DNA from: a virus
Length of the DNA: 57,380 nucleotides
Reading direction: 5' to 3' (one strand)
Virus genome (UHGV): UHGV-0150885
The position numbers and the translations under genes are program-made. The notes under the pieces were generated by a model. It was not told the DNA's origin. It ran no database searches and saw nothing but the letters and a program-made list of their open reading frames with translations. Position 1 is the first letter of the stretch. Every line of letters begins with the position of its first letter. This document shows, one piece after another, positions 10,336 through 51,611 of the stretch.

Positions 10336-10363
10336 AGTTTACAGAATGGTGTTTTTCGGTCAA
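10336..10363 (-). promoter_or_regulatory. Candidate PR promoter (TTGACC -16- TAAACT) for leftward early operon
   Basis: Hexamers on - strand between cI start and first leftward gene. Confidence 0.4.
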
Positions 10364-10422
10364 GGCTTGAAAAATACATTTTGTGACTTGCATCAAACTT
10401 TTTAGGGCGATAGGGTAGCGAT

Positions 10423-11070
10423 ATGAAAACAAAATGGTATGACTTAGCAAAACAACTCATGCGGGCGCAAGGCATGAGCCAGGATTCATTGGCGGATCTC
10501 ATGGGGATCACAAAAGGCGGCTTATCTCACTGGCTGAATGGTCGCCGCGAGCCAAATCTTGAAGATATTGCGCGGATTATGCGGGCGCTTGGTCGTCGGC
10601 AGTTTACGGTCACTCATGACGGGATGGTTATCGATGATTCAGTTTCAAATACGTTGCCGGGAGCGCCGCCGCTCGACGTGGGACGTTATCCGGTTATTGA
10701 CTGGAAAGACGCAGGAAACTACATGGAAGAAGCAAAACGCGCATTACTACCACACGTTAACACGAGCGTGATTTGTTCGGATGATAGTTATTGGCTGGTC
10801 GCAAAAGGTGAGTCAATGAACGCACCGCAGGGATTAAGTATCCCGGCAGGGACGATGATACTTGTCGATCCGCACGCGCCAGCTATTGACGGCAAACTGG
10901 TTATAGCCCAACTGGAGGAAGGGCAAACGCCGACGTTTAAACAGTTAATCATTGATGGAGGTCAAAGGCTTTTACGTTCGCTTAATCCGCTGTACCCACC
11001 AATCCCGCTAAACCCTGAATCAAAAATTATTGGCGTGGTGGTGGATGCAAAGATCGTAAACCTGCCATAA
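10423..11070 (+). CDS. cI: CI-like repressor, HTH-XRE + LexA-like peptidase S24 domain
   Basis: 215 aa; N-term HTH (QDSLADLMGITKGGLSHWLNG); C-term S24 motifs (KGESM ... TFKQL). Confidence 0.85.
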   Translation: MKTKWYDLAKQLMRAQGMSQDSLADLMGITKGGLSHWLNGRREPNLEDIARIMRALGRRQFTVTHDGMVIDDSVSNTLPGAPPLDVGRYPVIDWKDAGNYMEEAKRALLPHVNTSVICSDDSYWLVAKGESMNAPQGLSIPAGTMILVDPHAPAIDGKLVIAQLEEGQTPTFKQLIIDGGQRLLRSLNPLYPPIPLNPESKIIGVVVDAKIVNLP

Positions 11071-11100: not shown

Positions 11101-11180
11101 GCCCGGAAAGCACCAAAACGTAAACCGAAAACAGTTTTTATTGTTTGAATATCAATGAGATAGAAAATATTTTAAAAAAG

Positions 11181-11222
11181 TATACAAAATGGATTGACTC
11201 AACATATCACGGGGCGTATATT
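11181..11222 (+). promoter_or_regulatory. Candidate PL promoter: TATACAAAATGG box, -35 TTGACT, 17 bp, -10 TATATT
   Basis: Near-consensus sigma70 hexamers with 17-bp spacer upstream of nutL and N-like gene. Confidence 0.5.
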
Positions 11223-15042: not shown

Positions 15043-15141
15043 CAGCGTGATTGCGATCACATAAATATACATTTTGTCTTGTCCTGCTGTATCCGTTTTG
15101 TAAACTTAAATCGAAAGGTATACAGAACGGAGGGCGGGAAA

Positions 15142-17638: not shown

Positions 17639-18122
17639 CAGGTTATTAGCCTGCGTTTATGTCGCCGTTTTTGTGATCATCAATCTTATTGTTAACCATT
17701 GCGGCCCGTGGGTAATTCCAGTCACCACGGTAGCCGCTGTGTGTGTCAATATGATGATCCGTGACTTCCTGTTATATGACGGCGGCCTGAAATGGTCGGC
17801 TACAACATGCGCTATAGCTGGCGCGATCACGGTGCTGATAAATTACGACGCCGGAATGGTGGCGATCGCGTCGTTTGTCGCGGTTGTTTCCGGTGCGCTT
17901 ATTTCTGGCGGCGTTTACCGGGTTTTACCTGGTGATTTCGATTCTAAACGCTGGCCTGCAAATATAGCGTCCGCCATTGGTGATGCGTTAATTTTTCCTA
18001 CGCTATCGTTTGTGGCATTTATGCCGGAAATATCAGCTATGCAATTCATCTCAAAAATGGCAGCGGTAACGGTGATTACTATCATCATGCGCCGCTATTT
18101 TACGTTTGAGGGCAGGAAATGA
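17619..18122 (+). CDS. Integral membrane protein (~167 aa, 4-5 TM helices)
   Basis: Start MKRVTIDR; multiple hydrophobic helices. Confidence 0.5.
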   Translation: MKRVTIDRLLACVYVAVFVIINLIVNHCGPWVIPVTTVAAVCVNMMIRDFLLYDGGLKWSATTCAIAGAITVLINYDAGMVAIASFVAVVSGALISGGVYRVLPGDFDSKRWPANIASAIGDALIFPTLSFVAFMPEISAMQFISKMAAVTVITIIMRRYFTFEGRK

Positions 18123-18883
18123 AAGGGCTTAGAAATTGGGTTGTGTGGTCGCTGTACGACGGCAGCGGGTACGCCGTTAAGGATTGGGCGGAAGCTGGAT
18201 ATAAGTGCTATTGCTTCAACTATGACGGCGCTAATCACGGCGATTACGAAGGCGTAAAAATCATTCATCCGAATATCGAATACGTTAACGTATGGATTGA
18301 CAGCCATTTCCTGGTAATGTTCTCCCCTGAATTGTCTGTTTATCCAGATCCTGACATTATCCTGGGCTTTCCTCCGTGCGACGATCTCGCGGTATCCGGC
18401 GCTCGCTGGTTTGCTGATAAGCGGAAGAAAGATCCTTACTTTCAGCAGAAAGCAGCGTACAACGCAAAGTTAGTAGAAATGCTGGCGAGTATGTATAACG
18501 TCCCGTGGATGGTGGAAAATCCGGTAGGCGCACTGTCAACGTTATGGCGTAAACCGGATTTTATCTTTAATCCGTGCGCTTACGGTGGCTACCTGCCGGA
18601 AGATGATAAACATCCTGCTTTCCCGGAATACATCGCCGACCGCGACGCCTACACGAAGAAAACATGTATCTGGTGTGGGAATGGATTTAAACAGCCGCTA
18701 TTCCGGCCTGTACCGATGCCGGATGAATGGGAAGATAGTAAGCAGCACGCGAAGTTGGGCGGAAAGTCGAAGCGCACTAAGATGATCCGCTCACTAACGC
18801 CGCGCGGCTTTGCCCGTGCTGTATTCCTGGCTAACGACCGGGCAATCACTCGCACTACGCTTAACCGTGTTTTACCGGATTGA
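18119..18883 (+). CDS. C5-cytosine methyltransferase-like protein, compact, with atypical PCD motif
   Basis: 254 aa; motif I-like LYDGSGYAVKDWAEAGY, motif IV-like GFPPCDDLAVSGA (PCQ to PCD), motif VI-like MVENPVGAL. Confidence 0.6.
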   Translation: MKGLRNWVVWSLYDGSGYAVKDWAEAGYKCYCFNYDGANHGDYEGVKIIHPNIEYVNVWIDSHFLVMFSPELSVYPDPDIILGFPPCDDLAVSGARWFADKRKKDPYFQQKAAYNAKLVEMLASMYNVPWMVENPVGALSTLWRKPDFIFNPCAYGGYLPEDDKHPAFPEYIADRDAYTKKTCIWCGNGFKQPLFRPVPMPDEWEDSKQHAKLGGKSKRTKMIRSLTPRGFARAVFLANDRAITRTTLNRVLPD

Positions 18884-18885
18884 TG

Positions 18886-18964
18886 TTTACAAAATGGCGT
18901 CATTGTGTGATGAGCGTCACATAATGGCGCTTTTCATCTTGTCCGGGCGTATCCATTTTGTATA
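18886..18964. promoter_or_regulatory. Regulatory region: inverted TTTACAAAATGG / CCATTTTGTATA boxes flanking a perfect CRP-consensus-like palindrome TGTGATGAGCGTCACA
   Basis: Palindrome at 18906-18921; boxes at 18886-18897 and 18953-18964. Confidence 0.4.
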
Positions 18965-18979
18965 CTGCAATCAAACGAA

Positions 18980-19013
18980 ATGCTCTTTAAAAACCTGGCC
19001 CCGCTGAAATGCG
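18980..19013 (+). promoter_or_regulatory. Second + strand nut-like site: boxA TGCTCTTTAAAAA + boxB hairpin CCGC-TGAAAT-GCGG
   Basis: Same boxA and identical loop TGAAAT as nutL; upstream of ninG-rusA-Q block. Confidence 0.5.
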
Positions 19014-19046
19014 GAAATATATCACCTGACAGAAGGAGAATAAATC

Positions 19047-19223
19047 ATGAACGATGATAGGTACGCGTGGCATGACGACTACGAGCGCGAATGCGTAATG
19101 CGGGCAATGTGCAATTTATGTAACCCCGACAAAGGAGATTGTAACGAGTGCAACAAATGCGTAGATCATTGGCTAAGGGCCGGAGCCGCCGCAAAGCCGA
19201 ACGAAATCGAATATCGAAAATAA
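19047..19223 (+). CDS. Small cysteine-rich protein (58 aa), NinF-like position
   Basis: GAAGGAG SD; CxxC pairs (CNLCNP..CNECNKC); immediately upstream of ninG. Confidence 0.45.
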   Translation: MNDDRYAWHDDYERECVMRAMCNLCNPDKGDCNECNKCVDHWLRAGAAAKPNEIEYRK

Positions 19224-19237
19224 TTGGGGTGGACTTT

Positions 19238-19843
19238 ATGCAAAACCCTAAAAAACCCATAAGACGCCGTTGCAAGTGCTGCGGCGTTTTTTTTGAGCCT
19301 AAATATCACAACCAGACGTGGTGCAGTGACGAATGCCTGGAAGAATTGAAATTTGACCAGCTATGCCGCGACCGTGAGAAGGCTATGAAGGCTATGGAAC
19401 GGAAGAAACGCCGTGATAGCCAGCGGGAAGAACGCAACCGGAAGCGTAAACAGTTAAATCCGCGTAGTTATTGGATCAAACAAGTTCAAAATGTATTCAA
19501 TGCCTATATCCGCGAACGTGATGCGCGGTTGCCGTGTATATCCTGCGGGACTTACTACGGTGAGCAATGCGGGTGGGATGCAGGCCACTACAGAACGGTT
19601 GCCGCCGCCGGACACCTTCGCTTTAACGAGGATAATTGCCATAAACAATGCAGGCACTGCAACCAGACATTAGACGGAAACATAGGAGGGTATCGCCCGG
19701 CACTGATTCGAAAAATTGGCCTCGCTAGGGTGGTAGCACTGGAGAACAACAACGATACGCATAAATGGACGATCGCAGAATGTAAGGAGTTAATAAACAT
19801 CTATCAGGCGAAATTGGACGCCTTAAGGAGAAAGGCAGCATGA
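19238..19843 (+). CDS. ninG: NinG/Rap recombination protein
   Basis: Colinear with lambda NinG (RRRCK..C..F.P....WCS.EC, PRSYWIKQ, LPCISCGT, WDAGHYRT, LRFNE, HKQC..CNQ, RWTI.ECK). Confidence 0.85.
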   Translation: MQNPKKPIRRRCKCCGVFFEPKYHNQTWCSDECLEELKFDQLCRDREKAMKAMERKKRRDSQREERNRKRKQLNPRSYWIKQVQNVFNAYIRERDARLPCISCGTYYGEQCGWDAGHYRTVAAAGHLRFNEDNCHKQCRHCNQTLDGNIGGYRPALIRKIGLARVVALENNNDTHKWTIAECKELINIYQAKLDALRRKAA

Positions 19844-21607: not shown

Positions 21608-21911
21608 AGATCTACATTTAAACCTGAAAGGAGAATACTTTTACGCCATCCGGGCGGGAAAGAAGGTGGAGGAATACCGGCTTTATAATGACTATTGGCG
21701 CAAGCGCCTGGAGGGGCGGGAATATGAACGCCTGATTATTAAGCTGGGGTATCCAGCCAGCCACGAAGCGCACCGGATCATAAACCTTCCTTATTTTGGG
21801 TATGAAGTGAAAATTATCACACATCCATTATTCGGCCCTGATCCGGTGAAAGTATTCGCAATTAAATGTGATGTGAATTGGATGTTAAGGTGGGGGAGCG
21901 ATGAAAAGTAA
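21597..21911 (+). CDS. Hypothetical protein, possible ASCH/PUA-like fold
   Basis: Start MASKDLHL; LKGEYFYAIRAGKKVEEYR resembles ASCH N-terminal strand pattern (weak). Confidence 0.4.
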   Translation: MASKDLHLNLKGEYFYAIRAGKKVEEYRLYNDYWRKRLEGREYERLIIKLGYPASHEAHRIINLPYFGYEVKIITHPLFGPDPVKVFAIKCDVNWMLRWGSDEK

Positions 21912-25141: not shown

Positions 25142-25163
25142 AAGCGTGATCTACCCCGCAAAG

Positions 25164-25206
25164 TTTACAAAATGGCATTGTTCCGGCAGTGCCGTTTTGT
25201 TATATA
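25164..25206 (+). promoter_or_regulatory. Candidate late promoter PR' (TTTACAAAATGG box, -35 TTGTTC, 17 bp, -10 TATATA)
   Basis: Promoter-like hexamers about 175 bp upstream of tR'-like terminator and lysis genes. Confidence 0.45.
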
Positions 25207-25380
25207 TAAGTCAAGGAAAGACGGAAGGGGAGATAAGAAAATGAAACGCGAATATGTAAACACCATCAAAGGCATCGAAGCGGACCTGGCGCAAGGTTGG
25301 TGATTTGTAGCTATAAGCCGTGTTTGTATAGGTTAAACAAACGGATTAAAATATTTCCTAACAATGCGAAATTGTATTCA

Positions 25381-25405
25381 CCCGGCCCCGCGCCGGGTTT
25401 TTGCT
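25381..25405 (+). terminator. Rho-independent terminator (tR'-like) just upstream of holin
   Basis: CCCGGC-CCCGC-GCCGGG hairpin followed by TTTTTGCTTTG. Confidence 0.65.
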
Positions 25406-37632: not shown

Positions 37633-38319
37633 GTGATAATTATGATTCATGTTCGTACCGGACAATTTGCGGCGGTGGTGGATAATAAACGCTACGTGTT
37701 TAACCCCTGCTTCGCTGCAATGGCGAAAATTGGCGGCGATCGTGAGCTTGTCCAGTTATTCGCAACCATTCACGGTAGCAAGTATCCCTCCCGCCTGCCT
37801 AACGATCCAGACCTCCGTAATCGCATTCTGGCGCGGTGTTATGGTGAGATAGTGCAATCGTCCATCCATATCCTGAAATGTTGCTCTGACGACGATATAA
37901 CAGACCTGGTGGGCGAATGTCGATTTACTCCTGCGGGCAAGCTACGACAGAAACCCGGATTAATGCCAACCGAAGATATTATCACGCTGGCACAGCATTG
38001 CATGTACCACGGTCTAATCGGTGACGGGCCGGAAGAAGACGCCGGAGAGATCCCGGAAGGGGAATATAAGCCAGCCTTTAACGTGCTGGAATTCGTTTAT
38101 TCTGCCGTTGCTCACCTGGGATTATCTGAATCGGAAGCATGGGCCATGACCATGACCGGATATAGGGCCGCTGTACGCGCTAAAATGCCGCCAGACGCGA
38201 AAAACGAGAAAGCTAAACCAAACGTTCAGATAAATAAACAGGTTTATGACGAGCGAATGGAGGCCGCTAGAAAGGCACTGGAAAGAATGAAAAATCGCAG
38301 GCAGAAAAAAGCCCGGTAG
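37633..38319 (+). CDS. Tail assembly chaperone-like protein (putative)
   Basis: 228 aa; located between major tail and tape measure; Lys-rich C-terminus. Confidence 0.4.
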   Translation: MIIMIHVRTGQFAAVVDNKRYVFNPCFAAMAKIGGDRELVQLFATIHGSKYPSRLPNDPDLRNRILARCYGEIVQSSIHILKCCSDDDITDLVGECRFTPAGKLRQKPGLMPTEDIITLAQHCMYHGLIGDGPEEDAGEIPEGEYKPAFNVLEFVYSAVAHLGLSESEAWAMTMTGYRAAVRAKMPPDAKNEKAKPNVQINKQVYDERMEAARKALERMKNRRQKKAR

Positions 38320-38336
38320 ATCCGGGCGTTTTGTTT
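38305..38336. terminator. Bidirectional Rho-independent terminator between convergent genes
   Basis: A6-GCCCGG-TAGAT-CCGGGC-GTTTTGTTT. Confidence 0.6.
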
Positions 38337-38927: not shown

Positions 38928-38979
38928 AAAACACCCCCACTTAATTGTTTTGTTTAACTATCTTTTCCTTTGACTTCCT

Positions 38980-39021
38980 TATACAAAATGGAGTCGGTAA
39001 AGTAAAGCCATTTTGTATAAA
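38980..39021. promoter_or_regulatory. Palindromic divergent promoter unit: TATACAAAATGG -16- CCATTTTGTATA, with TATAAA/TATAAG -10 hexamers in both orientations
   Basis: Perfect 12-bp inverted repeat; each box sits 24 nt upstream of a -10-like hexamer on its strand. Confidence 0.45.
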
Positions 39022-39058
39022 ATAGAGGCACAGATCACATTTTGTATGAGGTTAAATC

Positions 39059-41405: not shown

Positions 41406-41436
41406 AACCCCGGTACAATGCCGGGGTTATCTTTTA
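41406..41436. terminator. Bidirectional terminator after tape measure gene
   Basis: CCCCGG-TACAATG-CCGGGG hairpin + TTATCTTTTATT. Confidence 0.6.
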
Positions 41437-42247: not shown

Positions 42248-42332
42248 TGGTTATAATTCTTGTGATGAATATCTCATTTTTCGCGTAGCAACGCGTAAAG
42301 ATGTACACAAAATGTAACTTATAGGGGGAAGT

Positions 42333-42969: not shown

Positions 42970-42976
42970 AATAACA

Positions 42977-42998
42977 CCCCGCCGGAGCGGGGTTTTTC
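42977..42998 (+). terminator. Rho-independent terminator
   Basis: CCCCGC-CGGA-GCGGGG + TTTTTCG. Confidence 0.6.
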
Positions 42999-44270: not shown

Positions 44271-44309
44271 AATATACATATTGTAAAAATCGCGATCAAT
44301 CCATTTTGG
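44271..44309 (-). promoter_or_regulatory. Candidate promoter for reverse cassette 3 (CCAAAATGG box, -35 ATTGATC, 17 bp, -10 TATATT)
   Basis: Nearly identical architecture to candidate PL. Confidence 0.45.
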
Positions 44310-44353
44310 CGCGATTTAGCGTGACGCAGATCACAAAATCGAAAGGTGAGAAA

Positions 44354-46277: not shown

Positions 46278-49200
46278 ATGGGCGGCGGCGGTGGTAAAGC
46301 AAAAACACCAACATTAATAAACGACAATTTATTTCATAAGCAATTTTACCGGGTTCTGGATATATTGAGTGAAGGGCCGATTTACGGTCCGGTCAATACC
46401 GCTGCCCCGTTAAACTGCGTAATGCTTAATGACACACCTGTTACGGATGCCGTGGGTAATACCAGTATCCCAGGCGTTAGCGTCGCCTGGCGTCCGGGTA
46501 CTGCCGACCAGTCACCGATCAACGGCTTCAACGCCATTGAATCTACGGTAATGGTTAACGCGCAGGTGAAATATGACACGCCACTGGTAAGGACGGTATC
46601 AGATCCGAACGTGACGCGCGTCCGGTTGAATATTGGCGTGGATTCACTGGTGGAAAGTGACAGCGAATCAAACCAGCATGAAACATCAGTTTTTATGGCG
46701 ATTGATGTAAAACCATCATCATCATCAATCTGGTCGGCGATTAAGGCCGTGCAAATCGGTCCGGGTAAGATTAGCGGTGAATATCTGGAATCACACATCA
46801 TTGATGCGCCGGACGAAAAACCGTTCGATATTCGCGTTCGCCGCATAACACCTGACAGCACGGGCGATCTATTGCAGAATGATACCCGCTGGAATAGCTA
46901 CAGTGAAATTATCGACGATAACTTGTCTTATCCTCACACCGCTGTAGCGGGCGCGGTGATTGATCATGACCAGTATACCGACACGCCGACACGCACTTAT
47001 CACATGCGTGGCCTGATTGTTGATGTACCGGATAACTACGATCCGGAAACGCGCACTTATTCCGGTTTATGGCTGGGCGGGATGAAACAGGTGTACACCA
47101 ATAACCCAGCGTGGATCTTCCGGTATCTGGTTAAAAACGAGCGTTTTGGCCTTGCCCGCCATGCTGGTTATATTGACGTTGACGACGGCGCATTATACAC
47201 GCTTTCCCAATACTGCGATCAGTTGGTTGACGATGGTTATGGCGGCCTTGAGCCGCGCGTGACGCTTAATGCATACATTACGGAGCAAATGAGCGCCCGC
47301 GACTTACTGGACAACATTGCCGGAATGTTCCGGGGGATTGCGTTATGGGACGGTCAAACACTTACTGTAATGCTCGATGCACCGCAAGATCCGATTGCAA
47401 CCATCACAAACGCAAACGTCGTTGATGGTGCATTCACCCGTTCAAGCATTGCGCGTGCGGAATGTTACAACGCCGTGATTGTATCCTGGACTGATCCGGA
47501 AAACGGCTGGGAGCAATCAAAAGAGTATGTAGCGGATGATGAGCTAATCGCCCGCGATGGTTACAATGAAACCACACTGGAGGCGTTCGGCTGTACATCA
47601 CGCGGGCAAGCGTACCGCGCGGGCAAATGGCTGATAGAAACAGCAAAACGCGAGCCGTCGAAATTCACGTTTAAAATGGCCCGTGACGCGATTCACTTTA
47701 CACCAGGGGATATTATCGAGATTCTCGATAATAACCGTGCTGGCGCGCGTTTAGGCGGTCGTATCGTGGCGAATAACGGGAACGTGATAACGGTTGATAA
47801 GGTTGATAGCGAGTACATTACGGCAGGCGACACCATCAGCTTGCTCGATAGCGATGGTAAATTTAAAAAACACCAGATCACCGGAGTGAATGGAAACGAG
47901 ATCACCTTAGCGGCGGCCCCGGCATGGATTCGGAACGGTACTGTATTTGCTGTATCAACCGAAGCGGCAAAACCCGTTTTATGTCGAATCACTAGCGTAG
48001 CCGAAACCGAAAATAACAGCGTATACACCATTGAGGCCGCGCAGCACGATCCGAACAAGCAAGCGGTTGTCGATGAGGGCGCAATCTTTGAGGTTAACAG
48101 CGACACGCTGAATCACTTCCGTGTACCGAACATCGAAAACCTGAAAGTGATAAACATTGGATCGGAAACAGTTCAATGCCGCGCCACCTGGGAAACTCAA
48201 ACCACTACCCGCGCATTAACCTTTGAGATCCGCATTTATGACACCGACGGGCGCGTGGTGGCGAGCTACGAAACGCAAAATTACCGGTATGACTTTTTCG
48301 GCCTTGAGTGCGGTAATTATTCGCTTGGTATTCGTGGGCGCAATGACACCGGGATGAAGGGAGCGGAAACACTGGTAGATCTTATTGTTGGTGCGCCTGC
48401 CGCGCCGACTGGTGTTAATTGGGTGCCAGGTGTTTTTCAGGCGACTGTTTACCCGATCAGCAACAGCACGCTAACGACTGATACTACTTACGAATTCTAT
48501 TACGCTGGAGAAAACCAGATTACTGACTTCTCACTGGTAACAACATCAGCGCAATTTTCCGGGCGCGGCTATCAGTGGACTTTTGGCGGGATGGCAACGG
48601 GCCACACGTATTACGTTTACGTGCGCACAAAAAACGCTTTCGGCGTATCTGACTTTATCGAAGCCAGTGGTAAGCCGTCCGAAAACTTCGAAGAAATCAC
48701 GGATGCCGTGCTGAATGAAGTTATGGAGGGTGAGCAATTTCAGGACATGATTAAAGAAACCATCGACGAGGTAACAGGCGGCTTGATGGGCGATGTGGAA
48801 GAACTGAAACAAACCACGGTAGATATTGACCAGGCTGTTACCGATCTGAAAGAATCGACCGCAGACCTGGAAGAACGCGTGAAAAACAATGAGGATGGAA
48901 TTGGAGAACATGAAAGCCAGATCAACGAAATCAGCGTCGAGTTAACTGAACAGGAAAATGAACTAATCCAGACACGCGCCAGCCTGCAAAACGCAGCTAT
49001 TGCGCTTATGAATAACTCACTGGCTAACACCAGCACGCGCACCACGTTGACGGCACAGTATAAAAACCAGAAAGCAGAAACGAAGGCGGAGATTGAGCGC
49101 ATCGACACTGTGATCGCTACAGAGAAAGAAGCGACCGCGCAGGCGCTTACGACACTCGAAAGCAAGGTCAATGACGAAATCAGCGCCAACGTAACCGAAC

Positions 49201-50255
49201 TGCAACAAACCATTGCAACGCTTGAAAGTTCGACAAGCCAGTCGATCGAAAAATTAGAAAGCCAGGTCAACGAAGATATTCAGGCAAGCATAACGGAGAT
49301 TAACCAGACGATCACCGATCTGGAATCATCCACATCTGAATCTATTAGCAACCTTGAGGCTAAAGTAGATGGTGATATATCGTCAGCAATAAGCAACATG
49401 GAGCAAGCACTCGCTACCCACGAAAAAGCCAACGCTACGCAGTTTAATAGCCTGCAAAGTCAGATTGATGAGAATGAGGCTGCAATCACTGAAACTAATC
49501 AGACGATCGCAACCAATGAACAAGCAACCGCGCAGAAGCTGGAGCAACTACAGGCGCAAATAGACGACGATGTGGCGGCAGCTATTACCGAAATGCAATC
49601 CGCGCTTGCCACCCATGAACAAGCTAATGCTACTCAGTTTGCGGAAATTAGCGCATCGCTGGAAGCAAACGAGGCGTCGATCACGGAGTGGAGCGAAGCG
49701 TTTACAACCTATAAGGAATCGACCGCCACGCAGATTGAAAGTATTACGGCGTCAATCGAGGGGCAATCGGTATCAATTGAGGAAAATAAAACCGCCATCG
49801 CTGGCCTTGAAACCGACATGTCGGCAACGTGGAGCGTTAAGATCGCCGCAGACAACAACGGCATGAAATATTTTTCCGGGATCTCGCTTGGCTTGACTGG
49901 CAGCGGTACGAGTACGCAATCGCAATGTATTTTCCTTGCTGACCGCTTTGTATTAATGACAGCGGCAAACGGCACATATACAACGCCTTTCTATGTCACA
50001 AATGGTGCAATGTATGTGCGCGAAGCGTTTATTAAAGACGCCTCAATCACTAACGCGAAAATTGGATCTTACATCCAGTCAAATAACTATGTTTCCGGTA
50101 GTACTGGCTGGAAGCTGGATAAATCCGGTACATTCGAAAACTACGGATCAGTAAGCGGTGAAGGAGCGATGAAATGGACGAACACAACAATCTCTGTCAG
50201 AGATGGAAATAGCGTGTTACGCGTCCAGATTGGGCGAATTACCGGATCATGGTAA
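46278..50255 (+). CDS. J: Host specificity protein J (central tail fibre) with coiled-coil repeat insertion
   Basis: 1325 aa; long colinear blocks with lambda J (FGCTSRGQAYRAGKWLIETAK, RVRRITPDSTGDLLQNDTRWNSYSEIID). Confidence 0.95.
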   Translation: MGGGGGKAKTPTLINDNLFHKQFYRVLDILSEGPIYGPVNTAAPLNCVMLNDTPVTDAVGNTSIPGVSVAWRPGTADQSPINGFNAIESTVMVNAQVKYDTPLVRTVSDPNVTRVRLNIGVDSLVESDSESNQHETSVFMAIDVKPSSSSIWSAIKAVQIGPGKISGEYLESHIIDAPDEKPFDIRVRRITPDSTGDLLQNDTRWNSYSEIIDDNLSYPHTAVAGAVIDHDQYTDTPTRTYHMRGLIVDVPDNYDPETRTYSGLWLGGMKQVYTNNPAWIFRYLVKNERFGLARHAGYIDVDDGALYTLSQYCDQLVDDGYGGLEPRVTLNAYITEQMSARDLLDNIAGMFRGIALWDGQTLTVMLDAPQDPIATITNANVVDGAFTRSSIARAECYNAVIVSWTDPENGWEQSKEYVADDELIARDGYNETTLEAFGCTSRGQAYRAGKWLIETAKREPSKFTFKMARDAIHFTPGDIIEILDNNRAGARLGGRIVANNGNVITVDKVDSEYITAGDTISLLDSDGKFKKHQITGVNGNEITLAAAPAWIRNGTVFAVSTEAAKPVLCRITSVAETENNSVYTIEAAQHDPNKQAVVDEGAIFEVNSDTLNHFRVPNIENLKVINIGSETVQCRATWETQTTTRALTFEIRIYDTDGRVVASYETQNYRYDFFGLECGNYSLGIRGRNDTGMKGAETLVDLIVGAPAAPTGVNWVPGVFQATVYPISNSTLTTDTTYEFYYAGENQITDFSLVTTSAQFSGRGYQWTFGGMATGHTYYVYVRTKNAFGVSDFIEASGKPSENFEEITDAVLNEVMEGEQFQDMIKETIDEVTGGLMGDVEELKQTTVDIDQAVTDLKESTADLEERVKNNEDGIGEHESQINEISVELTEQENELIQTRASLQNAAIALMNNSLANTSTRTTLTAQYKNQKAETKAEIERIDTVIATEKEATAQALTTLESKVNDEISANVTELQQTIATLESSTSQSIEKLESQVNEDIQASITEINQTITDLESSTSESISNLEAKVDGDISSAISNMEQALATHEKANATQFNSLQSQIDENEAAITETNQTIATNEQATAQKLEQLQAQIDDDVAAAITEMQSALATHEQANATQFAEISASLEANEASITEWSEAFTTYKESTATQIESITASIEGQSVSIEENKTAIAGLETDMSATWSVKIAADNNGMKYFSGISLGLTGSGTSTQSQCIFLADRFVLMTAANGTYTTPFYVTNGAMYVREAFIKDASITNAKIGSYIQSNNYVSGSTGWKLDKSGTFENYGSVSGEGAMKWTNTTISVRDGNSVLRVQIGRITGSW

Positions 50256-51452: not shown

Positions 51453-51611
51453 TGTCTTACCCTCCGTTGTTTCGTTGGTTGTAGTATCCATAAACCGCAT
51501 TTTTACAACATTGATGTAAATCAACAAACACATTTTGTATAAACCAGAAATGTAACATAGATCACAAAATGGTAGAATTATTCCGTTAATTAACATAATG
51601 GAGTCATTGCA

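What the first reader, a model, noticed from the sequence alone, without database searches (positions are those of the whole stretch)
18886..18964. Perfect CRP-consensus-like palindrome flanked by inverted promoter boxes upstream of the second nut site
TGTGATGAGCGTCACA (18906-18921) matches both CRP half-sites TGTGA-N6-TCACA. It is bracketed by TTTACAAAATGG (18886) and CCATTTTGTATA (18953). The position, just before the boxA/boxB element and ninG-rusA-Q, suggests host cAMP-CRP input or a phage repressor operator controlling late-early expression.
Basis: seen in the sequence. Interest (0 to 1): 0.45.

Follow-up and report, generated by a model that had tools for sequence, protein, structure and literature searches.

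The report
Promoter control region upstream of nutR2
The CRP-like palindrome and its flanking boxes are real and strongly conserved, and they form the control region of a previously undescribed internal promoter just upstream of the third N-utilisation site of an mEpimmI-type coliphage; they are one copy of a regulatory module repeated across the phage, not a one-off site.

Summary
TGTGATGAGCGTCACA (18906-18921) is the only perfect CRP core in the window (0.06 expected), and the flanking boxes are 11/12 complementary. The window is an mEpimmI-group phage, and the downstream boxA/boxB is the published nutR2. In 35 distinct relatives the half-sites, arms and boxes are 95-100% conserved. The central 4 nt (69%) and the neighbouring coding sequence (85%) are less so. 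The right box is a 14-mer, CCATTTTGTATACT, supplying an invariant -10 (TATACT) 16 nt after a conserved TTGTCC. CCATTTTGTA is the most over-represented 10-mer in the phage, and its copies mark pL, pR and most intergenic promoter regions. YGTGAY-N4-RTCACA recurs 7 times (1.5 expected). At four promoters (this one, 15046, pL, 38991) its centre lies 25.5-26.5 bp upstream of the -35, which is the lac class I CRP spacing. The palindrome plus its arms also forms a -20 to -24 kcal/mol hairpin, annotated in mEp021 as predicted terminator t4. Covariation is uninformative and the paralogous copies lack the hairpin. Best reading: a terminator-like hairpin, a CRP-type activator site, a weak sigma-70 promoter and nutR2 form a third early transcription unit leading to Q. 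CRP as the binding protein is inferred, not shown.

The parts
18884..18897 (-). Left box. This is a minus-strand copy of the phage-wide 14-mer (CCATTTTGTAAACA).
   Evidence: Conservation is 99% in 35 relatives. Many relatives read the full consensus CCATTTTGTAAACT here.
18896..18931 (+). 16-pair RNA hairpin, the predicted intrinsic terminator t4 (TERM_4 in mEp021). It starts 13 nt after the methyltransferase stop codon and is followed by UUUUCAUCUU.
   Evidence: -24.1 kcal/mol, z -4.66; median -19.7 kcal/mol in 35 relatives. There are no compensatory changes, and one pair is broken in 17 of 27 distinct sequences.
18903..18924 (.). 22-bp CRP-type site TTGTGTGATGAGCGTCACATAA. The core TGTGA-N6-TCACA is at 18906-18921 and the centre is 18913.5.
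   Evidence: GTGAT and TCACA are invariant, the first T is T or C, and the central 4 nt are hypervariable in 35 relatives.
18931..18938 (+). T-tract (TTTTCATC). It would be the U-tail of the hairpin in RNA. In DNA it is the A/T stretch between the palindrome and the -35, where alpha-CTD sits in class I complexes.
   Evidence: a T-tract is aligned in all three paralogous modules. The UP-like tract is described in PMC4132738.
18939..18944 (+). -35-like hexamer TTGTCC. The block CTTGTY is conserved.
   Evidence: TTGTCC-16-TATACT, 9/12 matches; 91% conserved, with variable positions on both sides.
18953..18966 (+). Right box, the 14-mer CCATTTTGTATACT. It contains the -10 hexamer TATACT (18961-18966). 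The predicted transcript start is about 18973.
   Evidence: -10 is 100% invariant and 18950-18960 is 99% conserved. The start site is inferred, not mapped.
18981..19014 (+). nutR2: boxA TGCTCTTTAAAAA (18981-18993) and boxB hairpin CCCCGCTGAAATGCGG (18999-19014). boxA begins at about +9 of the predicted transcript.
   Evidence: Identified as nutR2 in PMC11893012.
19268..19294 (+). Intrinsic terminator (GC stem plus T8) inside the 5' end of ninG, between this promoter and Q. It is the likely element that makes read-through depend on Gp17 acting at nutR2.
   Evidence: Annotated by ARNold in 5 relatives. Its role as a gate is inferred.
15046..15106 (+). Paralogous module B: CGTGATTGCGATCACA (15046-15061), TTGTCC (15079-15084) and CCGTTTTGTAAACT (15093-15106). 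Its spacing is identical to the finding's. It has no hairpin and no U-tract.
   Evidence: -4.9 kcal/mol, z +0.99; footprint in 17 relatives.
10336..10397 (-). Paralogous pL module: palindrome 10382-10397 (TTTGATGCAAGTCACA on the minus strand), -35 TTGACC (10363-10358) and 14-mer CCATTCTGTAAACT (10349-10336). nutL boxA follows at 10255-10244.
38978..39039 (-). Fourth promoter with the same geometry: a leftward 14-mer CCATTTTGTATAAG (38991-38978) and, upstream of it, TGTGATCTGTGCCTCT (39039-39024). The palindrome centre is 48.5 bp from the -10.
   Evidence: (score 7-8 of 10 at the same offset in the window, mEp021 and mEp013).

Best explanation
The segment is the control region of a third early transcription unit of an mEpimmI-type phage. 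Reading rightward it contains five elements:

1. A long hairpin (18896-18931, predicted terminator t4) that would stop or attenuate unmodified transcripts arriving from pR through the methyltransferase gene.
2. Within the DNA of that hairpin, a 16-bp dyad YGTGAT-N4-RTCACA. It is a binding site for a dimeric activator, most probably host cAMP-CRP. Its centre is 25.5 bp upstream of the -35, about -60 from the predicted start, which is a class I position.
3. A short T-tract.
4. A weak sigma-70 promoter, TTGTCC-16-TATACT. Its -10 is embedded in a phage-wide 14-mer (CCATTTTGTAWACT) that marks nearly all promoters of this phage.
5. nutR2, starting about 9 nt into the transcript.

Transcripts starting here would load Gp17 (the N-like protein) at nutR2. 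They would then read through the terminator inside ninG to reach rusA and Q.

Shown here: the elements exist, are conserved with a promoter-like and operator-like footprint, and recur as a paralogous module at pL, 15046 and 38991.

Inferred: promoter activity, the start site, CRP as the binding protein, termination at t4, and the gating role of nutR2.
For: Identity of the phage and of nutR2.

Promoter:
- TTGTCC-16-TATACT is called by the scan.
- In 35 distinct relatives the -10 is 100% invariant and CTTGTY is 91% conserved. The 5 nt between them are 70% and the adjacent coding sequence is 85%.
- The module aligns end to end with the pL module and with module B.
- nutR2 and nutL share GCTCTTTAAAAACCTGG, so each of the three nut sites follows a 14-mer promoter.

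Protein-site signature of the palindrome:
- Half-sites are 95-96% conserved and the central spacer is 69%.
- In module B, which has no hairpin, GTGA and TCACA are conserved while the preceding base varies C/T/A and the left flank varies.

Enrichment and location:
- There are 7 copies with up to 1 mismatch against 1.5 expected.
- In mEp021, 5 of 7 copies are intergenic, P = 5e-4.

CRP-type geometry:
- The centre-to-(-35) distance is 25.5 bp at the finding and at B, and 26.5 bp at pL and at 38991. A score of 7 or more at a given position has probability 0.0036.
- Class I activation occurs near -61.5 and -71.5, and UP-like tracts commonly follow the CRP site (PMC4132738).
- The lac figure of 25.5 bp is my own calculation from the lac promoter sequence as I know it.

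Core match: 10 of 10 core positions match, and this is the only perfect core in the window against 0.06 expected.
Against: - No binding or transcript data exist, so the start site is unknown. With a start 7 nt after the -10 the site is centred at -59.5. That is 2 bp from the canonical -61.5 when counted from the -10.
- Three other palindromes (42261, 44320, 51551) lie downstream of, or over, rightward 14-mer promoters. Relative to candidate leftward promoters they sit at mixed phases (+10, +3 and about +5 bp relative to the finding's spacing). A single class I scheme does not fit all copies.
- One half-site of several copies continues into the phage-specific 9-mer (CCATTTTGTGAT). A phage protein that reads that 9-mer could also read the palindrome.
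- The arms outside the 22-bp CRP site (18896-18902 and 18925-18931) are 98-99% conserved. CRP does not explain this. It points to the hairpin, or to another protein, as an additional constraint.
- Simple promoter matches are not enriched in this phage overall: 23 found against 30 expected. The promoter call therefore rests on conservation and paralogy, not on the consensus match.
Confidence: 0.45

Rival explanations
1. The palindrome is an operator for a phage-encoded regulator (the CI-like Rep, the MarR-like first gene of the pL operon, or another protein), not for CRP. The 14-mer boxes would be further sites for the same or a partner protein. Together they would form a dispersed operator system that keeps all phage promoters under immunity or developmental control, comparable to the C1 operators of P1 or the stoperators of mycobacteriophage L5.
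For: - Both motif families are phage-wide and intergenic. CCATTTTGTA occurs 9 times against 0.21 expected, z = 19. In mEp021, 10 of 11 exact 9-mers are intergenic, P = 8e-9.
- The families are conserved at homologous positions in mEp021 and mEp013.
- Five of 12 palindrome half-sites continue into the 9-mer (CCATTnTGTGA), from my reading.
- Three palindromes overlap or follow rightward promoters, which are repressor-like positions.
- Rep operators have not been defined in the literature.
- Any promoter upstream of Q must be silent in a lysogen.
Against: - pR, which an immunity repressor must control, has no GTGAT-N4-ATCAC palindrome. The lone ATCAC in its spacer is not conserved.
- At the finding, at B and at pL the palindrome lies about 60 bp upstream and does not touch the core promoter.
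- pL must fire before any phage protein is made.
- Rep is a lambda CI homologue. In lambda operators ATCAC lies at the outer end of each half-site and reads toward the dyad centre. Here it lies next to the central spacer and reads outward. This is from my knowledge of the lambda operators.
- Silence in the lysogen can be obtained without an operator, through the ninG terminator together with the absence of Gp17.
- All known relatives share about 96% similar Rep, so no repressor-site covariation test is possible.
Confidence: 0.25
2. The palindrome is only the upper stem and loop of an intrinsic terminator (t4) ending the pR-to-methyltransferase transcript. Its resemblance to a CRP site would be incidental and no protein would bind it.
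For: - It is annotated as TERM_4 (score 79) in mEp021 and listed as predicted t4 in PMC11893012.
- The stem has 16 pairs, -24.1 kcal/mol, z -4.66.
- It is stable in 34 of 35 relatives and is followed by 3-5 U in most.
- It starts 13 nt after a stop codon.
- The arms outside the CRP core are 98-99% conserved, and a variable loop fits a hairpin.
- It is the top-ranked terminator-like hit in 10-26 kb by stem length.
Against: - No pair changes on both sides. Four single-sided changes keep pairing. Three pairs vary only by losing pairing, and a fourth (U5-G32) loses pairing in one sequence. The common T-to-C change leaves a C.A mismatch in 17 of 27 distinct sequences.
- The U-tract is short and variable. 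It is UAUUC in mEp021 itself.
- ARNold did not call it in five relatives.
- The same palindrome core, at the same distance from a paralogous promoter, occurs at 15046 with no stable hairpin and no U-tract. It also occurs at pL and at 38991.
- Termination at t4 does not exclude protein binding, so this rival only fails as a sole explanation.
Confidence: 0.15
3. The elements are chance matches, or are conserved only because this intergenic block is a recombination junction between gene modules, with no regulatory role.
For: - The block separates two alleles of the methyltransferase 3' end from two alleles of ninF and boxB.
- Promoter-like matches are not enriched overall.
Against: - Conservation is position-specific, not uniform. 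The spacers vary while the hexamers and half-sites do not.
- The motifs are strongly enriched and intergenic.
- The architecture is repeated with the same spacing at four loci.
Confidence: 0.03

Closest known systems
Class I CRP-dependent promoter (lac P1 type)
   Same: - A TGTGA-N6-TCACA dyad centred about 60 bp upstream of the start, 25.5 bp from the first base of a weak -35.
- An A/T tract between the site and the -35.
- A variable central spacer, and weaker conservation of the base before GTGA.
   Different: - CRP binding and crp dependence are untested.
- The -35/-10 spacer is 16 nt against 18 in lac, so the site is 47.5 bp from the -10 and not 49.5.
- The site lies inside a terminator-like hairpin.
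- It is one of a family of sites in a phage, some of which are in repressor-like positions.
Lambda pL-nutL and pR-nutR early units (N antitermination)
   Same: - A promoter followed closely by boxA/boxB.
- An N-like protein (Gp17) and Nus dependence are documented for mEp021.
- Terminators lie between the promoter and Q.
   Different: - There are three nut sites instead of two.
- The third is served by its own internal promoter within the rightward operon (inferred).
- nutR2 would start only about 9 nt into the transcript.
- No CI-type tripartite operator is seen at this promoter.
Predicted terminator t4 / TERM_4 of mEp021 (GenBank MH706966; Negrete-Mendez et al. 2025)
   Same: It is the same homologous sequence, position and hairpin.
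   Different: The published annotation is a prediction only. In the sources I could read, it mentions neither the CRP-like dyad, nor the downstream promoter, nor the repeated 14-mer.
Dispersed phage operators (P1 C1 operators; mycobacteriophage L5 stoperators) and T4 PeSL promoter-stem-loop cassettes
   Same: - A short asymmetric motif repeated about 16 times in intergenic, promoter-proximal positions of one phage genome, in both orientations.
- At the finding, a stem-loop directly followed by a promoter at a mosaic junction, as in PeSL cassettes.
   Different: - The binding protein is unknown.
- The motif has fixed registers relative to the -10 (0 nt) and the -35 (1 nt). That looks more like part of the promoter than a free-standing operator.
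- Most copies lack a stem-loop.
- These comparisons come from my own knowledge and were not tested here.

Membership tests
CRP (CAP) binding site, class I | Match to the 22-bp consensus AAATGTGATCTAGATCACATTT, above all TGTGA-N6-TCACA | tested here: met
   10 of 10 core positions match at 18906-18921. It is the only perfect core in the window, against 0.06 expected. Most relatives read CGTGAT-N4-ATCACA, 9 of 10.
CRP (CAP) binding site, class I | Centre near -61.5, -71.5, -82.5 or -92.5 relative to the transcript start (PMC4132738) | tested here: inconclusive
   The centre is 25.5 bp from the -35, as in lac by my own calculation. It is 47.5 bp from the -10, which gives about -59.5 to -61.5 depending on the unmapped start.
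CRP (CAP) binding site, class I | Binding of cAMP-CRP, and crp/cya-dependent promoter activity | not testable with these tools
   This needs a gel shift or footprint, plus reporter assays in crp and cya mutants.
Sigma-70 promoter | -35 and -10 hexamers at 16-18 nt spacing, conserved while the spacer varies | tested here: met
   TTGTCC-16-TATACT matches 9 of 12. The -10 is 100% conserved, the -35 block 91% and the spacer 70% in 35 relatives. It is paralogous to pL.
Sigma-70 promoter | A mapped transcript start | not testable with these tools
   No transcript data were available.
Rho-independent terminator | A stable GC-containing stem-loop at the end of a transcription unit | tested here: met
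   16 pairs, -24.1 kcal/mol, z -4.66, starting 13 nt after the stop codon. The median is -19.7 kcal/mol in relatives.
Rho-independent terminator | A U-tract immediately after the stem | tested here: inconclusive
   The window has UUUUCAUCUU. Relatives have 2-4 U in the first 5 nt after the stem, and mEp021 has AUUCA. ARNold did not call it in five phages.
Rho-independent terminator | Base pairing maintained in evolution (compensatory changes) | tested here: inconclusive
   No pair changes on both sides, 9 pairs are invariant, and one pair is unpaired in 17 of 27 distinct sequences.
CI-type immunity operator (lambda-like) | Dyad-symmetric sites present in several copies over the core of both early promoters pL and pR | tested here: not met
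   pR has no such palindrome. At pL, at B and at the finding it lies about 60 bp upstream of the start and does not overlap the -35 or -10.
N-utilisation (nut) site, context of the finding | boxA plus a boxB hairpin in the transcript, with a cognate N-like protein | tested here: met
   boxA and boxB lie at 18981-19014 and are homologous to nutL and nutR1. The site is published as nutR2, acted on by Gp17.

The most novel reading that the evidence does not exclude
mEpimmI phages wire host cAMP-CRP directly into their developmental programme. CRP-type sites sit at class I positions upstream of pL, of two internal early promoters (one of which drives nutR2-ninG-rusA-Q) and of leftward promoters inside the tail region. 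Some of these sites also overlap opposing rightward promoters. Carbon status would then set early and late gene expression and the lysis-lysogeny balance. At nutR2 a single 36-nt sequence would act both as a terminator in RNA and as an activator site in DNA. A phage-specific 14-mer tags every promoter.
Probability: 0.25. Interest if true: 0.6.

Novelty: new member of a known kind. Interest (0 to 1): 0.42.

Why it matters
mEpimmI phages are reported to be as common as lambdoid phages in human faecal isolates. Their promoters and operators have not been defined, and their use of three nut sites instead of two is presented in the literature as an unexplained peculiarity.

This analysis gives a concrete, testable explanation. 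There are three early promoters, each tagged by the same 14-mer and each followed by its own nut site. The third feeds the Q gene.

It also names a candidate host input (cAMP-CRP) at four promoters, including pL. And it provides the motif set needed to map the regulatory circuit of the group. If CRP is confirmed, the phage would link its decision to express Q to the carbon state of the host.

Tried and rejected
- I tested whether the annotated "terminator" under the first BLAST hits was this element. In the five ARNold-annotated mEp phages it is not: that feature is a different hairpin inside ninG. Only mEp021 annotates the palindrome hairpin.
- I looked for covariation in the hairpin. There is none either way.
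- I looked for the palindrome at pR, to test the Rep-operator idea. It is absent.
- By eye, I compared the 14-mer and the palindrome with the binding sites, as I remember them, of LexA, Fur, FNR, IHF, Fis, DnaA, TyrR, ArcA, HipB and sigma-54 or sigma-28 promoters. None fits. CTG-N8-CAG at pL is 2 bp short of a LexA box, and the DnaA-like TGTGGATCA lies in the variable spacer. These are recollections, not tests.
- The T-run before the -10 (TTTTG) is one base out of register with the extended -10 consensus TRTGn.
- I checked whether TTTACA (18886) could pair with a -10 about 17 nt downstream. It cannot.
- The Valencia-Toxqui 2023 paper on mEp021 antitermination could not be read. I therefore cannot exclude that it mentions a promoter near nutR2.
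- A literature search for CRP sites in lambdoid phage regulation gave no relevant precedent.
- The second most over-represented 9-mer (CCGAACAAG) is mostly a coding repeat.
- The hit at 21806 (AGTGAAAATTATCACA) has no counterpart in the lists for mEp021 or mEp013, and I treat it as chance.

Full report
**1. The observation**

TGTGATGAGCGTCACA is at 18906-18921. TTTACAAAATGG is at 18886-18897. CCATTTTGTATA is at 18953-18964 and is the reverse complement of the first box at 11 of 12 positions.

The repeat finder extends the arms to 20 nt at 85% complementarity. The perfect core TGTGA-N6-TCACA occurs once in 57,380 bases, against 0.06 expected from base composition. With up to one mismatch there are 7 matches against 1.51 expected, and no shuffle out of 100 reaches 7.

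Three details differ from the description. The boxes are not centred on the palindrome. They lie 69 nt apart, so they cannot be the two hexamers of one promoter. The dyad is also longer than stated: with its flanks it forms a 16-pair stem at 18896-18931.

**2. Where this is**

The segment lies between a DNA methyltransferase gene (18119-18883) and ninF, ninG, rusA, a 60-aa ORF and a Q-like antiterminator gene.

The closest annotated relatives are Escherichia phages mEp010, mEp013, mEp044, mEp515, mEp554, mEp021 and MagusPhagus. These form the mEpimmI group of Nus-dependent, non-lambdoid temperate coliphages (PMC11893012).

That paper, citing Valencia-Toxqui et al. 2023, reports three things:
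- an N-like protein, Gp17, acts on three nut sites;
- nutR2 lies downstream of the cytosine methyltransferase gene;
- terminators t3 and t4 are only predicted.

In the text I could read, the paper names no promoters, operators, palindromes or CRP sites. The 2023 paper could not be read.

**3. Conservation**

I anchored a scan of IMG/VR on nutR2, not on the palindrome, so the sample is unbiased with respect to the palindrome. It returned 38 contigs. Together with the annotated phages these give 35 distinct sequences.

| Segment | Fraction of sequences sharing the majority base |
|---|---|
| Left box | 0.99 |
| Arms | 0.98 and 0.99 |
| Half-sites | 0.95 and 0.96 |
| Central 4 nt | 0.69 |
| T-rich tail | 0.80 |
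| CTTGTY block | 0.91 |
| 5 nt after CTTGTY | 0.70 |
| 18950-18960 | 0.99 |
| TATACT | 1.00 |
| 3' end of the methyltransferase gene | 0.85 |

Conserved blocks separated by variable spacers are what one expects of a protein-binding dyad followed by a promoter. The promoter scan calls TTGTCC-16-TATACT at 18939-18966.

**4. The boxes belong to a phage-wide family**

An unbiased k-mer test shows that CCATTTTGTA is the most over-represented 10-mer in the window: 9 copies against 0.21 expected, z = 19. It is also among the most over-represented in mEp021 and mEp013.

The full unit is a 14-mer, CCATTTTGTAWACT, whose last six bases look like a -10. Copies lie at pL (10349-10336, minus strand), abutting the -35 of pR (11179-11192, inverted), at 15093, 18884-18897 (inverted), 18953, 25162/25192, 38978/39008, 42235, 44239 and 51530/51572.

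In mEp021, whose genes are annotated, 10 of 11 exact 9-mers lie in the 12.4% of the genome that is intergenic, P = 8e-9.

Two inverted pairs have the same 16-nt gap (25162-25205 and 38978-39021). That gap equals 1 nt, a -35 position and 9 nt.

At pR, and at a leftward promoter called by the scan (44299-44271), the 9-mer ACAAAATGG or CCAAAATGG sits one base upstream of the -35. There it resembles the proximal UP subsite AAAAAARNR quoted in PMC4132738. What reads the 14-mer is not known.

**5. The palindrome also belongs to a family with a repeated geometry**

The other matches with up to one mismatch are at 10382 (pL/pRM region), 15046, 42261, 44320, 51551 and 21806. All but 21806 have counterparts at homologous positions in mEp021 and mEp013. 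Across those copies GTGA and TCAC are mostly kept while the central bases differ.

The module at 15046-15106 has exactly the finding's architecture and spacing: the dyad, 17 nt, TTGTCC, 16 nt and the -10 inside a 14-mer. The pL module aligns with both along its whole length.

A systematic scan upstream of every 14-mer found a fourth case. TGTGATCTGTGCCTCT lies upstream of the leftward promoter at 38991, at the same offset as at pL, in all three genomes. The chance of a score of 7 or more at a given position is 0.0036.

The dyad centre lies 25.5 bp from the first base of the -35 at the finding and at 15046. It lies 26.5 bp away at pL and at 38991. By my own calculation from the lac promoter, the lac CRP site is 25.5 bp from its -35. 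Class I activation is reported for sites centred near -61.5, -71.5, -82.5 and -92.5, and UP-like tracts commonly lie just downstream of the site (PMC4132738). All three aligned modules have a T-tract at that place.

The footprint of module B in 17 distinct relatives shows GTGA and TCACA conserved. The preceding base varies (C, T or A), the left flank varies and the centre varies. From my own knowledge, this matches the pattern of CRP base contacts.

**6. The terminator reading**

The GenBank record of mEp021 annotates "terminator TERM_4, score 79" on exactly this hairpin.

In favour:
- The RNA folds at -24.1 kcal/mol, z = -4.66.
- It is stable in 34 of 35 relatives, with a median of -19.7 kcal/mol, and is usually followed by UUUUC.
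- The arms outside the 22-bp CRP-type site are 98-99% conserved, which CRP would not explain.

Against:
- No pair shows a change on both sides, and the common T-to-C change leaves a C.A mismatch in 17 of 27 distinct sequences.
- The U-tract is short and is poorest in mEp021 itself.
- ARNold did not call the hairpin in five relatives.
- The paralogous dyads at 15046, pL and 38991 have no such hairpin: -4.9 kcal/mol, z = +0.99 at 15046.

I conclude that a terminator function at this copy is plausible and compatible with a DNA-site function. It cannot be the sole explanation of the dyad.

**7. The phage-repressor reading**

The repressor gene of the window (10423-11070) is a clear lambda CI homologue: 3bdn, E = 1.5e-20. 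An immunity operator must control pR. pR is TTGACT-17-TATATT at 11194-11222 and is the best promoter match in the region.

pR has only the inverted 14-mer abutting its -35 and no GTGAT-N4-ATCAC dyad. The single ATCAC in its spacer is not conserved. At the finding, at B and at pL the dyad does not touch the core promoter.

The dyads at 42261 and 51551 overlap or directly follow rightward 14-mer promoters, and 44320 lies further downstream of one. Several half-sites also continue into the 9-mer. A phage-encoded binder therefore cannot be excluded.

All known relatives share nearly the same repressor. No test of co-variation between repressor and site is possible.

**8. Proposed mechanism**

Shown:
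- A conserved promoter-like element lies immediately upstream of nutR2, with boxA about 9 nt after the predicted start.
- It is paralogous to the pL-nutL control region, and nutR2 and nutL share GCTCTTTAAAAACCTGG.
- A conserved dyad sits at a class I-like distance.
- A hairpin could terminate incoming transcripts.
- A strong terminator lies inside the start of ninG (19268-19294), between this promoter and Q.

Inferred:
- The promoter fires, and an activator on the dyad, most probably cAMP-CRP, helps it.
- Its transcripts acquire Gp17 at nutR2 and only then pass the ninG terminator to express Q.
- In a lysogen, without Gp17, such transcripts stop before Q, so the promoter needs no repressor site of its own.

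This would explain why the phage group needs a third nut site: each of three early promoters has its own.

**9. Comparison, novelty and score**

The element works like a class I CRP promoter joined to a lambda-type promoter-nut unit. Membership of the CRP regulon is unproven. The hairpin is already annotated as a predicted terminator. In the sources I could read, the dyad as a protein site, the promoter and the two dispersed motif families have not been described.

I rate it a new member of known kinds. Interest is moderate (0.42), because it makes the three-nut-site puzzle and the regulatory map of a common gut phage group directly testable.

Noticed in passing
window 19268-19294: A strong intrinsic terminator (GC stem plus eight T) lies inside the first codons of ninG, between nutR2 and the Q gene. 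It is annotated by ARNold in five relatives. It would make Q expression depend on antitermination.
   Followed up: partly
window 25162-25205 and 38978-39021: Two inverted pairs of the 14-mer share an identical 16-nt gap (ACAAAATGG-N16-CCRTTTTGT), forming symmetric back-to-back promoter-like units. The first pair is followed about 175 nt later by a strong terminator (25380-25398), resembling a pR'-tR' late arrangement. The 14-mers of the first pair are not found at the corresponding place in mEp021 or mEp013.
   Followed up: partly
window 11179-11222 and 44271-44309: The 9-mer ACAAAATGG (or CCAAAATGG) sits exactly one base upstream of the -35 at pR and at a leftward promoter in the tail region. 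It resembles the proximal UP-element subsite AAAAAARNR.
   Followed up: partly
window 39024-39039, 42261-42276, 44320-44335, 51551-51566: In the divergent intergenic regions of the tail gene cluster, a CRP-like dyad lies upstream of a candidate leftward promoter. At three of the four loci it also lies over or just after the start of the rightward tail-gene promoter; at 44320 it is about 47 nt downstream of that start. One bound protein could therefore favour the leftward genes over the tail genes.
   Followed up: partly
window 10358-10425: The repressor gene may be transcribed as a leaderless or near-leaderless mRNA. TTGCAT-17-TAGGGT ends 4 nt before the ATG at 10423, and the pL-upstream dyad covers that -35. 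This was seen by eye only.
   Followed up: no
window 18831-19060 and loci L008-L048: The conserved intergenic block is a mosaic junction. Two distinct alleles of the methyltransferase 3' end, and two alleles of boxB plus ninF, occur on either side of it among 35 relatives.
   Followed up: partly
window 52159-52398: The over-represented 9-mer CCGAACAAG comes partly from a tandem coding repeat (three of eight copies) in the 1325-aa ORF 51612-55589. That ORF and the other 1325-aa ORF (46278-50255) show no BLASTP similarity to each other.
   Followed up: yes
window 38311-38327, 41406-41428, 42976-42993: GC-rich hairpins flanked by T-runs on both strands (bidirectional terminator-like) separate the rightward tail genes from inserted leftward gene clusters.
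   Followed up: no
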